The position numbers and the translations under genes were made by a program. Of a stretch of 64,000 nucleotides of DNA, positions 21,230 through 36,264 are shown in pieces. The stretch is from assembly GCA_964016885.1 (NCBI GenBank), contig OZ024742.1, positions 1,240,001-1,304,000 of the forward strand, given 5' to 3'. How positions within the stretch are numbered: position 1 is the stretch's first letter; each line of letters begins with the position of its first letter. The notes under the pieces are model-generated. The model did no database searches. It was not told the DNA's origin and saw nothing but the letters and a program-made list of their open reading frames with translations. Origin of the DNA: Eledone cirrhosa. Lineage: Eukaryota.

Positions 21230-21512
21230 TTAGAAAGTGAGGTTTTTTTTACAAAATGAAAAATAACCGAGGTGTCCTACACGAGTGAAAGTATAAAGAA
21301 AAAGAGATGAAATCGAAAATGCAACTGAAGTCTTATTTTTTTTTTTTAAATATATATATTTATTTGGTTCCTTTACCGGTTTCGCAGTTCTTCTGCTTTT
21401 TGAAAAGCAGAAGAACTGCGAAACCGGTAAAGGAACCAAATAAATATATATATTTAAAAAATAAAAAATAAATAAGACTCCAGTTGCATTTTCGATTTCA
21501 TCTCTTTTTTTT
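21230..21512. mobile_element. Fold-back element centred at ~21400 on a hammerhead motif
   Basis: ~100-bp inverted arms 21300-21400 / 21403-21510; (T)TGAAAA-gcag-aagaa-ctgc-GAAA-ccgg-TA-aagg; flanked by (TA)n. Confidence 0.75.
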
Positions 21513-22231
21513 TATATATATGTATATATATATATATATGTATATATATGTATATATATGTATATATATGTATATGTATATATGTATGTATATATATGTA
21601 TATATGTATATATATATATATATATATATGTATATATATTTATATATATATATATGTATATATATGTATATGTATATGTATATATATATATATATATATA
21701 TATATATGTATATGTATATATATATGTATATATATGTATATATATATGTATATATATGTATATGTATATATATGTATATATATGTATATATATATATATA
21801 TATATGTATATATATGTATATATATATATATATGTATATATATGTATATATATATATATGTATATATATATATATGTATATGTATGTGTATATATATATA
21901 TATGTATATATATGTATATATATATATATATATGTATATATATATATATATATGTATATATATATGTATATATATGTATGTATATATATATATGTATATA
22001 TATATATATATGTATATATATATATGTATATATATATGTGTATATATATATGTGTATATATGTGTATATATATATGTGTATATGTATATGTGTATATATG
22101 TATGTGTATATATATATGTGTATATATATATGTGTATATATATATGTGTATATGTATATGTGTATATGTATATATGTATATGTATATATGTATATGTATA
22201 TATGTATATATGTATATGTGTATATGTAGAT
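21513..22231. repeat. Interrupted (TA)n microsatellite (TATG type)
   Basis: Direct. Confidence 0.95.
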
Positions 22232-22233
22232 AT

Positions 22234-22620
22234 ATCATCACCGTTTTACGTCCGTTCTTTCACGCTAGCATGGGTTAGACGGGTTGTCCTGTTGTGGGCA
22301 GTGTCTGGTTGGCTGACCATGCATTGCTCATACAGGAACTGATTTGGCTTGATTTCTACAGCTGGATGCCCTTCCTAACACCAACCTCATTTACAGTGAG
22401 TGCTAGGTGCTTTTTTTTGCCGTGGCACCTCCACGACCACTTTGCAGTGGAATGATAGGGACCCCAGTCCCTATCATCTCATTTCTACAGCTGAGTAAAC
22501 TGGAGCAATGTGAAATAAAGTGTCTTGCTCAAGGAAACAACACATCACCCGGTCTGAGAATTGAACTCACAATCTTTCGATTGCAAGCCCAATGCACTAA
22601 CCACTAAGCCATGTGCCTCC
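22234..22620 (-). mobile_element. tRNA-derived CORE-like SINE with RTE-derived 3' tail
   Basis: Head GGAGGCACATGGCTTAGTGG (A box), GAGTTCAATTC (B box), core CCTTGAGCAAGACACTTTA; tail matches 3' UTR of RTE at 40708. Confidence 0.85.
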
Positions 22621-23036
22621 ATATATACATATACATATATACATATATATACATATACATACATATATATATATACATATATATATACATATATATATAT
22701 ATACATATATATATATATACATACATATATATATACATACATATATATATATATACATATATATATATATACATACATATATATATATATACATATATAT
22801 ATACATATATATACATATATATATACATATATATATATATATATACATATATATACATATATATACATATATATACATATACATATATATATATATACAT
22901 ATATATATATATACATATATATATATACACATATATATATATATACACATATATATATATACATATATATATATACATATATATATATATACATATATAT
23001 ATATATATACATATATATATATATATACATATATAT
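22621..23036. repeat. Interrupted (TA)n microsatellite (TACA type)
   Basis: Direct. Confidence 0.95.
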
Positions 23037-25190
23037 AGTTAAAAGAATAGAGGTGTAACACACAAGTTATTATATATTGGTAAACGGAATAGAAAATGCT
23101 GACAAATTGTTCACAGTTGAAAAATGGTTTAATTAGGAATAAAAGAGTATTAGTGATTGTATGGGTTAGTATTCAGTTGTGGTTTTAAGTTTTTAAGTTT
23201 TTACCGGTTGCTCATTTCTAAATGCTTTTCAAAAATAATTTTGAGATAGAGTGTTCCGTGTTGTTTGCTCTGATCTGATTAGTTTTGGGAATTCTACCTG
23301 TTTTTATGTTAAAAAAGTGGCTCCAGCGTTATTTTTGTGTTGCAAAAATGCTTGTGGTCAAAACAATTTTGATTGGTCGGTAGAGGTCATGTGAATGTAA
23401 AAAGTTGATTTTGCGCCAAGACTGTTTTTATGTTAAAAAAGTGGCTCCAGCAAAAATTCTTGGTCAAAACAATTTTGATTGGTCGGTAGAGGTCATGTGG
23501 ATAAAAAATTGGTTTTGCGCCAAGATTGAAAAATGACTCTTTCACAACAAATATGTGTGTGTGTGTGTATGTGTGTGTGTGTATATGTGTGTGTGTGTGT
23601 GTGTGTGTGTGTGTGTGTGTGTGTAGTAGTAGTAGTAGTAAGGTGTTCGATGCTGCGACAATGGCCAGCAGCGCTGTGTGTCAAATGGCTATTAAGATAA
23701 GTGTTCACATGACCTCTACCGACCAATCAAAATTGTTTTGACCACAAGCATTTTTGCAACACAAAATTAACGCTGAAGCCACTTTTTTAACATAAAAACA
23801 GGTAGAATTCCCAAAACTAATCAGATCAGAGCAAACAGCACGGACACTCTTTCTCAAAATTATTTTTGAAAAGCATTTAGAAATGCGCAACCGGTAAAAA
23901 CTTAAAACCACAACTGAATACTAACCCATACAATCACTAATACTCTTTTATTCCTAACTAGCAGTAAAGCCCGGCGTTGCTCGGGGTCGCTCAGTAGCTG
24001 TGTTAAAGTTACAATGTTAAGTTTCTTTTTTGGCTTAAAAACTGTAGTGTCTACTGTGCAGACTTGCATGTGGTGTTTTTGATTAATATTCCCTCAACCA
24101 ACAATATGCCTTATGAAGTTAAGAAAACATAACGATAACCCGAATTAAAGTAAATTCAGCCTTATAAGACCGTAAAATTAATTTAAACGTTTAATAGGGA
24201 AAGTTTGCTAACCGTCGTAATAAAAAAATAAATATCAATAACTTACGAAGTAATGAACTCGCCGAACTTTTAAAGCGTTGTAGCATACAAAGGCAGTACA
24301 GTGCAAATGAAGCTATTAAACAAACTGGAGATTCCAATTCACTCTACTAAAGATTTACTTAATCGTCTGCACATTCGCTAATCGTCTGCTCATTCCATAA
24401 AAGGGAAATAATCGCCTATATCACCTCTCTGCATGACTGTCTGTCTGCACGCCTATATCACCTCTCTGCATGACTGTCTGTCTGCACGCCTATATCACCT
24501 CTCTGCACGACTGTCTGTCTGCACGCGTATATCACCTCTCTGCACGACTGTCTGTCTGCACGACTGTCTGTCTGCACGCCTAACGAAATTTACAGATACA
24601 TATATTTTAAATAAACTTATATAATTTTTGCTTTTTTTTACGAAATATTTGCTTGTTTTACGTAGTCTTTAAATAGACTTGTTTTCAAGTAAAAATATTG
24701 TTTTAAAAGGCTTTTAAATGGAAATGAAGCAAAACGGAAGCTTAGTGTTCGAACTGATGAATTTTGCAGGTCAAAATTTTGCTGGCTCGACAACTGTTCG
24801 TGTATTGTGTTAATGTCATTTTAAACGCTGAGAAAGCCAGTGTAATTTTTTTAATTTTTGCACGCAGAAAATGTAAAGAGAACGTAAGACGCTACGCTGA
24901 ATGTAAACAGAACAAAGGGAAATAACTGATCACTTATGCTCAGAAATCAATACATTATATTCGATTTCGTCAGATAGGGCGGGTCAATTTGAAATATTTT
25001 TTTTCCCGATGTCTTCGCTAGGGCTCAATGTACAAGTATAGCAATTTCGGTGCAATTCCGTGAGACATTCTAAGAGGAGATGTGTGCCAAAAATCGATAG
25101 ACAGACAGACAACCTCAGTTTTATATATATAGATTAAACCATTTTTCAACTGTGAACAATTTGTCAGCATTTTCTATTCCGTTTACCAAT
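23037..25190. mobile_element. Fold-back pLTR-like element (left arm ~23075-23395; right arm 23704-23957 + 25134-25190), interrupted by a Helitron
   Basis: Long inverted repeat; degenerate hammerhead TTGAAAA-gcattt-ag-aaatgc-GCAA-ccgg-TA at 23863-23899 and mirror at 23199-23235. Confidence 0.75.
23958..25133 (-). mobile_element. Non-autonomous Helitron
   Basis: Minus strand 5' TC(TATATATA)..., 3' hairpin CCCGAGCAACGCCGGG then CTAG; inserted between A and T with no TSD; internal 37-bp minisatellite 24413-24580; second copy at 53758. Confidence 0.88.
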
Positions 25191-34687: not shown

Positions 34688-35217
34688 ATATATATATATA
34701 TACATAAATATATATATACATATATATATATATAAATATATATATACATATATATATATATAAATATATATATACATATATATATATATAAATATATATA
34801 TACATATATATATATATAAATATATATATACATATATATATATATAAATATATATATACATATATATATATATATATACATAAATATATATATATATACA
34901 TATATATATATACATAAATATATATATTCATATATATATACATATATATATACATAAATATATATATATATACATAAATATATATATACATATATATATA
35001 TATATATATATAAATATATATATACATAAATATATATATACATAAATATATATATACATATATATATATACATATATATATATATACATATATATACATA
35101 TATATATACATATATATATATATATACATATATATATATACATATATATATATACATATATATATATATACATAAATATATATATATATATACATAAATA
35201 TATATATACATATATAT
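34688..35217. repeat. Interrupted (TA)n with TAAA variant
   Basis: Direct. Confidence 0.95.
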
Positions 35218-35349
35218 GGAAAGTTATATTTAAAATTGTTGGGTTACAACTAGTAAATATTTATAACTGATATAAAAGCACTCGACAAATATTTGGAGTA
35301 TGTTTACAATATTAAATAAATGGAAACTATATTTATAAAACCATATTTA

Positions 35350-35411
35350 TTTCATTATATATATTTCGGGGATATCATATTAACAATATGCTATGCCTTC
35401 CTCAGACAAAA
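35350..35411 (-). ncRNA. Probable minimal hammerhead motif
   Basis: ttttgt-CTGAGGA-(imperfect stem II)-GAAA-tatata-TA^-atgaaa; in ~265-bp insert 35218-35483 between TA tracts. Confidence 0.5.
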
Positions 35412-36174
35412 TACAATATAAACAGTTTTATAGATAAATAGATTCGACATACCGTAACAACACCGACTTGCATTTGGAGAGGTTATATATATATATATAT
35501 ATATACATATATATATATATATATATACATATATATATATATACATATATATATATATATACATATATATATATATACATATATATATATATACATATAT
35601 ATATATATACATATATATATATATATACATATATATACATATATATATATATACATATATATATATATACATATATATATATATACATACATATATATAT
35701 ACATATATATATATATACATACATATATATATACATATATGTATTTTTAACTCTGATACTGGTTCAGTCTAGTTCAACTGAATTGGTCTGTCCCAGTCAT
35801 TCATTGAGCAACATCGGTGAAGTTGGCACCCTTAACTCACAGTTGGGTGCGGATGCATTCATGTATATATGTGTGTGTCCGCATGTATCTGTGTGTTTCT
35901 AAATATATTGTTAATAACTCCCTCTGGTCGAGCAATCTCTGAAGTGTGGGGACAACTGGAAAGCTTCCATTACTCATACTTCTCGCCTTCTTCACCACCT
36001 CTTCTACGGCCTCGATATGAATACCCCCTCCGCCTCCGTGGTATTTTCTTCGTGGTTATAAGAGGCTTAGCTCTGTTTCTCGACCGTTATATCGCGTGAC
36101 TATCTCCCCCTCCGCCTTTTGGGATTCTTTCTCACGTCGTGTAGACGCGTTCTTGAGACTAGTAAAATGAGGTA

Positions 36175-36264
36175 TCCTCTTGATAAGTCGGCAGACCTCG
36201 CAAGGACTCTATATCTTTATGATATATTGTTTTTGTTTATGCCACGAAACTACGTAGTCGAGGA
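36175..36264 (+). ncRNA. Hammerhead motif with U3-A8 variant core and long stem II
   Basis: tcctc-TTGATAA-gtcggca..tgccac-GAAA-ctacgtag-TC^-gagga; in insert ~35741-36335. Confidence 0.65.

What the first reader, a model, noticed from the sequence alone, without database searches (positions are those of the whole stretch)
21396..36264. Compensatory U3-A8 hammerhead core variant in independent families
Cores read TTGATAA (36180), TTGAAAA (23866, both arms) and (T)TGAAAA (21400; first T ambiguous at the junction) instead of CUGANGA. Established: C3 and G8 form a Watson-Crick tertiary pair in the active fold, so the double change keeps pairing. This suggests selection for activity, and strict motif searches would miss these. 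The 23.8-kb copy also has GCAA for GAAA and may be dead.
Basis: partly seen in the sequence, partly recalled or inferred. Interest (0 to 1): 0.72.

Follow-up and report, generated by a model that had tools for sequence, protein, structure and literature searches.

The report
U3-A8 hammerheads of Penelope-like retroelements
These are hammerhead-type, predicted self-cutting RNA motifs at the ends of very abundant jumping genes, carrying a paired two-letter core swap that is already published, plus one family with an extra core change that likely weakens cutting yet did not stop it from spreading to thousands of copies.

Summary
In the 36.2-kb family (6,208 matches) no copy is C3-G8; 12 lose only U3 and 14 only A8. 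Genome-wide pattern counts are U3-A8 42,404 and C3-G8 14,049; the two mismatched cores (551, 472) are near their chance controls. In a less biased 600-kb sample U3-A8 is 9 of 30. Two pairs of sister families differ at both positions. The variant is published: in nature and active (Perreault 2011), and in Schistosoma Penelope hammerheads (Cervera 2014). Two corrections follow. The 21.4- and 23.8-kb elements are sister autonomous Penelope-like families (RT plus GIY-YIG, 55% identical), so the window shows at most two lineages; the 36.2-kb element is a 595-bp non-coding retrozyme. GCAA (C13) is not a lesion of one dead copy: 98 of the first 100 of 6,138 family matches carry it, in a recently active family. 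That ribozyme is probably weakened, which gives a natural test of whether Penelope elements need cleavage. Cleavage was not tested. The scan noted other Penelope hammerhead families in this genome before; no note on U3-A8 or C13 came up.

The parts
21233..21400 (-). Family A: inverted, 5'-truncated arm of a Penelope-like pseudo-LTR, cut off inside the hammerhead core; start approximate
   Evidence: the region folds as one hairpin of about 67 bp
21398..21515 (+). Family A: direct arm, 5'-truncated in stem I, ending in (TA)n; end approximate
21400..21433 (+). Type-I hammerhead motif of family A: U3 21400, A8 21405, A13 21421, predicted cut after A17 21429. The family's own 5' strand of stem I is lost at the junction in this copy
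23083..23704 (-). Family B: inverted arm (3' part of an autonomous Penelope-like element); ends approximate
23202..23232 (-). Hammerhead motif of family B, minus arm: U3-A8, C13, plus private C11.1A
   Evidence: read directly
23704..23960 (+). Family B: direct arm, interrupted after about 23956 by an unrelated insertion
23863..23899 (+). Hammerhead motif of family B: U3 23866, A8 23871, C13 23888, A17 23896; stem I only 3 A-U pairs
25133..25183 (+). Family B: tail of the direct arm, resuming after the insertion
   Evidence: 100% match to 23133-23083
35734..36340 (+). Family C: one 595-bp unit of a non-coding tandem/inverted repeat (retrozyme) inserted in (TA)n
   Evidence: longest stop-free frame 87 codons
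36175..36264 (+). Type-I hammerhead motif of family C: U3 36180, A8 36185, GAAA 36246-36249, predicted cut after C17 36259

Best explanation
The three sites are type-I hammerhead motifs in the terminal repeats of Penelope-like retroelements; U3-A8 is fixed in each family and likely keeps the 3-8 core pair, so families A and C are predicted to cut their own transcripts as dimers, while family B, with a family-wide C13, is likely a weakened ribozyme. Shown here: the motifs, their fixation, covariation between sister families, the link of A and B to RT plus GIY-YIG frames, the tandem non-coding unit of C, and family-wide C13 in B. Inferred: two tandem copies pair through the palindromic stem III, 3-8 pairing places the 2'-OH of residue 8 as the general acid (established for C3-G8), and cleavage trims precursor RNA to unit length for reverse transcription. 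A single change at 3 or 8 would cripple a source element, so only matched cores found new families. The individual A and B copies in the window are probably inert.
For: Family C: 99 of the first 100 of 6,208 matches have A8. All 12 non-U3 matches keep A8, all 14 non-A8 matches keep U3, and none is C3-G8. A+B: 203 non-U3 matches, the 100 listed all keep A8. Genome counts with reversed controls: U3-A8 42,404 (764), C3-G8 14,049 (320), C3-A8 551 (411), U3-G8 472 (253). Of 18 clusters with 2 or more hits, 5 are U3-A8, 12 are C3-G8, and 1 is a single mismatched site seen twice. Sister families differ at both positions: 78% over 186 nt and 70% over 358 nt. A diverged family-C contig has 12 substitutions, all in the loop-II insert. 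A and B encode RVT_1 plus GIY-YIG and are 55% identical; their stems II differ by a compensatory pair. Co-folding gives the double-hammerhead arrangement for A and C. For B it does not form stem I, and a competing hairpin takes U3-A6. Papers: natural U3-A8, active in vitro (PMC3088659); about 1,300 U3-A8 motifs in Schistosoma Penelope elements (PMC4209133); A13 mutations inhibit 10-100 fold (PMC4075628).
Against: No cleavage or RNA data were available here. [quoted passage not shown] Metazoan Penelope hammerheads cut poorly even as dimers. Copy counts are not independent events and the family patterns preselect for conserved stems. Family B spread to 6,138 or more copies with intact frames, which argues either that cleavage is dispensable or that C13 is tolerated. 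Its two subfamilies (90% alike) both keep the rest of the core, though that conservation is not significant.
Confidence: 0.72

Rival explanations
1. Family B is a fully working variant in which the non-canonical A13-C17 contact has been swapped to C13-A17, a second compensatory change in the core.
For: C13 is fixed: 98 of 100 listed, 49 of 49 sampled copies. It always goes with A17 in B and is shared by two subfamilies 90% alike. No other letter was listed at 3, 8 or 13 in contigs of four runs. A13 and C17 are described as a non-canonical pair (PMC7092961). The family was recently active, with intact frames.
Against: The sister family A already has A17 with A13, so A17 did not arise to match C13. 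C13 does not recur in other large families: 439 matches against 443 by chance outside the B stem. One small C3-G8 family there has C13 with C17 in 4 of 5 listed copies. B also has a 3-bp all-A-U stem I and a competing hairpin. A13 changes cost 10-100 fold.
Confidence: 0.15
2. The motifs are kept for their fold, for example RNA dimerisation through the palindrome, packaging or priming by the element's RT, and cleavage matters little in any of these families.
For: B thrives with a damaged core. Reported in vitro rates of such motifs are very low, and the authors leave other functions open. A published review says the function in these elements is unclear. The palindrome pairs in all co-folds.
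Against: A strict 3-8 covariation is expected only if the active-site conformation is selected; a dimerisation signal needs no 3-8 pair. All other sampled families keep GAAA.
Confidence: 0.11
3. U3-A8 is drift in an A+T-rich genome (C>T and G>A decay) or a chance motif.
For: Both changes are transitions towards A+T, in a low-GC window.
Against: Decay would leave many single mismatches; they are about 0.2% per site in family C and near chance genome-wide. Shuffles give no such hits.
Confidence: 0.02

Closest known systems
U3-A8 hammerheads of Schistosoma mansoni Penelope-like (Cercyon) elements, Cervera and de la Pena 2014, PMC4209133 (passages, text part 2 of 4, supplement file 2 part 2 of 3 read; supplement file 1 not available)
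   Same: Type-I motif in pseudo-LTRs, palindromic stem III, the same UUGAAAA and UUGAUAA cores, about 1,300 hits, and an S. japonicum counterpart with similar stem II and C3-G8.
   Different: Here there is no extra base between A9 and G10.1, stem III is longer, copy numbers are in the tens of thousands, and one family has C13. The GAAA column of that paper's alignment shows no GCAA, but its descriptor demanded GAAA.
Natural U3-A8 hammerheads, Perreault et al. 2011, PMC3088659 (section 8 and passages read)
   Same: Same covariation, reported in several natural ribozymes and described as active in vitro.
   Different: Not tied to Penelope elements in the section read; A13C is not among the core variants named there (A6C, A6a, U13a, U15.1-A16.1).
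Metazoan non-LTR retrozymes (Cervera and de la Pena 2020, PMC7229834, passages; preprint 10.64898/2026.07.22.740005, part 1 of 5)
   Same: Family C is a non-coding tandem unit with one type-I hammerhead per unit.
   Different: The unit is longer (595 bp against about 300), has a U3-A8 core and a long insert in loop II, and often lies in inverted arms.
Neptune/Nematis-type EN+ Penelope-like elements (Craig et al. 2021, PMC8557442, passages)
   Same: RT, then a CX4CxxC linker, then GIY-YIG; 5'-truncated, inverted arms; (TA)n targets; hammerhead in the 3' repeat.
   Different: A and B have a separate upstream frame joined by a shared slippery site; the clade was not placed on a reference tree.

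Membership tests
Type-I hammerhead ribozyme | Core YUGANRA with a Watson-Crick 3-8 pair | tested here: met
   U3-A8 in all three families
Type-I hammerhead ribozyme | GAAA (G12-A15.1) after stem II, families A and C | tested here: met
   27 of 27 and 26 of 26 sampled copies have A13; these copies were picked by patterns or queries that already hold GAAA, so the count is partly circular
Type-I hammerhead ribozyme | GAAA after stem II, family B | tested here: not met
   C13 in 98 of 100 listed matches with position 13 left free; B is hammerhead-derived and not filed as a canonical member
Type-I hammerhead ribozyme | Stems I, II, III and a UH cleavage site in type-I order | tested here: met
   stem I of B is only 3 A-U pairs and is absent from its lowest-energy dimer
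Type-I hammerhead ribozyme | Site-specific self-cleavage after position 17 | not testable with these tools
   needs a bench assay or RNA-end data
Dimer-dependent Penelope hammerhead | Short palindromic stem III that pairs between two copies | tested here: met
   self-duplexes of -8.3 (A, B) and -12.9 (C) kcal/mol; double-hammerhead co-fold for A and C; prediction only
EN+ Penelope-like element (families A, B) | RT plus C-terminal GIY-YIG upstream of the hammerhead repeat | tested here: met
   RVT_1 is just under the curated cut-off for A (28.1 against 29.6 bits), GIY-YIG above for both
EN+ Penelope-like element (families A, B) | 5' truncation, inverted arms, microsatellite targets | tested here: met
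Neptune clade | CX2-5CxxC linker and phylogenetic placement | tested here: inconclusive
   linker seen; it is shared with Nematis; no reference tree built
Non-LTR retrozyme (family C) | Non-coding tandem units with one hammerhead each | tested here: met
   591-595 bp spacing; no frame over 87 codons
Non-LTR retrozyme (family C) | Accumulation of unit-length circular RNA | not testable with these tools
   no RNA data available to test

The most novel reading that the evidence does not exclude
Family B is a natural U3-A8 plus C13 hammerhead in an autonomous Penelope-like element of about 10,000 copies (extrapolated). Either it cleaves through a swapped C13-A17 contact, a core covariation not found in the papers searched, or it shows that a canonical Penelope element kept jumping after its ribozyme failed. 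Its sister family A is a ready-made control.
Probability: 0.3. Interest if true: 0.6.

Novelty: new member of a known kind. Interest (0 to 1): 0.33.

Why it matters
For the headline claim it matters little: natural U3-A8 hammerheads, including ones in Penelope elements, have been in print since 2011-2014. The practical point stands that CUGANGA-only searches would miss about a third of the type-I hammerheads sampled in this genome (9 of 30). The useful new handle is the A/B pair: two large, recently active sister elements whose hammerheads differ at A13. Whether Penelope elements need self-cleavage at all is described as unclear, and this pair makes that testable with two short RNAs.

Tried and rejected
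A DNA search with the 36.2-kb stretch returned nothing because very common words are skipped; patterns were used instead. I first read the 3:1 excess of U3-A8 over C3-G8 as a genome-wide majority. I rejected that: the pattern demands G10.1-C11.1, C15.2 and a short loop II, and a structure-based scan of 60 stretches (48 evenly spaced, 12 beside the window) gave 20 C3-G8, 9 U3-A8 and 1 mismatch. No RNA holder was listed for family B. The contigs laid from four runs of unrecorded kind show presence only; two of them gave few pieces and may not be independent. Test of purifying selection on B's motif after C13: 8 common substitutions in about 146 flanking bases and none in about 29 motif bases (rough hand estimate P about 0.2), inconclusive; the core-versus-flank rates are circular. 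A protein tree mapping U3-A8 origins failed for lack of long copies: most of 20 targeted loci were truncated. A small unrooted tree cannot give the direction of the switch. No autonomous partner for family C was found. A UCAA upstream that could pair with UUGA is present in A, B and two relatives but missing in a fifth, so it was not pursued. Literature: 'hammerhead' plus 'A13C' gave 0 papers; searches gave no natural C13 report in their listings; one search gave no octopus hammerhead study. Lunse et al. 2017 (Penelope hammerhead variants), Seehafer et al. 2011 and Nelson and Uhlenbeck 2008 are not held and could already describe C13 or rates for U3-A8.

Full report
Setting. The window is low-GC animal DNA full of (TA)n and (CA)n repeats and RTE-like LINE frames. 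It lies at C3:1,240,001-1,304,000 of a 3.0-Gb assembly. 'Octopus-like' is my recalled impression and a wording in an earlier scan note, not a tested result.

Observation. A structure descriptor (core, stem II, GAAA or GCAA, palindromic stem III, UH, stem I) found all three stated sites. With relaxed settings it found seven further type-I motifs in the window: six C3-G8 and one decayed G3-G8. The minus arm at 23232 was read directly and has U3-A8, GCAA and a private C11.1A. At 21400 the core sits on an inversion junction, and the whole region folds into a hairpin of about 67 bp. Intact copies elsewhere have their own stem I before UUGAAAA, so U3 is the family state.

Is U3-A8 fixed? Family C (36180) has 6,208 pattern matches, with 0 in the reversed control; 99 of the 100 listed have A8. 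With a 5-base prefix added, 12 matches lack U3 and all keep A8; 14 lack A8 and all keep U3; none is C3-G8. Family B (23866) has 6,138 matches; of the 100 listed, 98 have U3, 100 have A8 and 98 have C13. A and B together have 203 matches without U3, and the 100 listed all keep A8. So within families the rare departures are single and independent, as expected for decay after insertion.

Do 3 and 8 covary across families? A generic pattern gave U3-A8 42,404 (control 764), C3-G8 14,049 (320), C3-A8 551 (411) and U3-G8 472 (253); some rows count one site twice. The first 100 U3-A8 rows hold 9 stem types by my count: A 45, B 25, seven others 30. The pattern is biased: a descriptor scan of 600 kb gave 20 C3-G8, 9 U3-A8 and 1 mismatch among 30 hits, and no matched core in three shuffles. 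Clustering 319 hits from all fetched loci (not a random sample, with overlaps) gave 18 clusters of 2 or more hits: 5 U3-A8, 12 C3-G8, and one mismatched site seen twice. Two U3-A8 families have C3-G8 nearest relatives, at 78% over 186 nt and 70% over 358 nt; one of those C3-G8 sisters has a copy in this window at 33768 on the minus strand. On any tree this needs several double changes, but direction is unresolved.

What carries them. Long copies of A and B have a 775-784-codon frame with RT and GIY-YIG domains upstream of the hammerhead. The two proteins are 55% identical (424 of 771), and the DNA around the motifs aligns, 81.5% over 233 nt (alignment). They are sister autonomous Penelope-like elements with a Neptune/Nematis-type cysteine linker, so they count as one lineage. 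A third relative, 57% identical to both, has U3-A8 with A13 and C17, which makes C13 derived in B. Family C is a 595-bp non-coding unit in tandem and inverted arrays, that is a retrozyme. A diverged contig of it carries 12 substitutions, all in the loop-II insert.

Mechanism. Established: C3 and G8 pair in the active fold and residue 8 supplies the acid through its 2'-OH, so U3-A8 keeps the geometry. Predicted here: monomers do not favour the hammerhead fold, whereas two copies of A or of C co-fold with stems I and III between molecules; B forms stems II and III but not stem I, and its U3-A6 pairs upstream instead. Inferred: cleavage of tandem precursors gives unit-length templates, as proposed in print. 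Against full activity: pairwise mutagenesis of one hammerhead found strong rescue only for G3-C8, and Penelope hammerheads are slow in vitro.

The C13 family. C13 is shared by two B subfamilies that are 90% alike, and long copies are mostly 85-100% identical to the intact protein, so the element spread while carrying it. About 10,000 copies is an extrapolation from 6,138 and the 15:10 ratio of the two loop lengths. Outside the B stem, C13 is at chance level, 439 against 443. A13 contacts residue 17 and its mutation costs 10-100 fold. I judge a weakened ribozyme more likely than a compensated one, because A already has A17 with A13.

Comparison with the known. Natural U3-A8 was reported in 2011 with activity cited (PMC3088659, section 8). 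It was reported in Schistosoma Penelope elements in 2014, about 1,300 motifs (PMC4209133), and that supplement shows the same two heptamer cores. The headline is therefore known. A family-wide C13 did not come up or in the parts read, but three relevant papers were not held and one supplement file could not be seen.

Verdict. Real, correctly read, partly over-interpreted: a new member of a known kind. Interest 0.33, carried mostly by the A/B contrast.

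Noticed in passing
L116:3648, L115, L117, L111, L113, L114, L145 (family B); L121, L011 (family A): Both families have an upstream frame (455 codons in B, no Pfam match) overlapping the RT frame at the same U UUU UUA slippery site, seen in 9 of 12 loci checked. This looks like a conserved programmed -1 frameshift; a figure legend in PMC8557442 mentions frameshifted ORF1 in some Penelope types, clade not seen.
   Followed up: partly
window 31017+, 40584+, 40447-, 58376-, 48362+, 60750-, 33768-: Seven further type-I hammerhead motifs from four other families; only 48344-48415 was listed by Rfam as a hammerhead (HH9, 38.9 bits, below its gathering score).
   Followed up: partly
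window 23956-25138: A 1.2-kb element with internal 37-bp repeats is inserted in the direct arm of family B; a relative lies at about 53753-54655.
   Followed up: no
window 36192-36240: Family C carries a long variable hairpin insert in loop II, where nearly all subfamily differences within the motif fall.
   Followed up: partly
G000 C1:116321966, C1:302796350, C2:66812180, C2:86939597, C2:86949674: A small C3-G8 family also shows GCAA, mostly with C17 (5 rows).
   Followed up: no
L127:4977-6557 (G000 C1:6519941-6521556): A 316-bp tandem array of six U3-A8 hammerheads related to another U3-A8 family.
   Followed up: partly
G000 C5:39920630 and 39921227; C19:18237721 and 18238312: Tandem family-C units sharing the same mismatched core (U3-U8 or U3-G8), so a mismatched unit was copied within one insertion.
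   Followed up: no
window 4150-17400: A 13-kb strand-asymmetric GT-rich satellite, GC skew near +0.98.
   Followed up: no
window 41002-44157 (-): A 1,051-codon stop-free RTE-like LINE frame (family name from my recall of the motifs) with several truncated relatives in the window.
   Followed up: no
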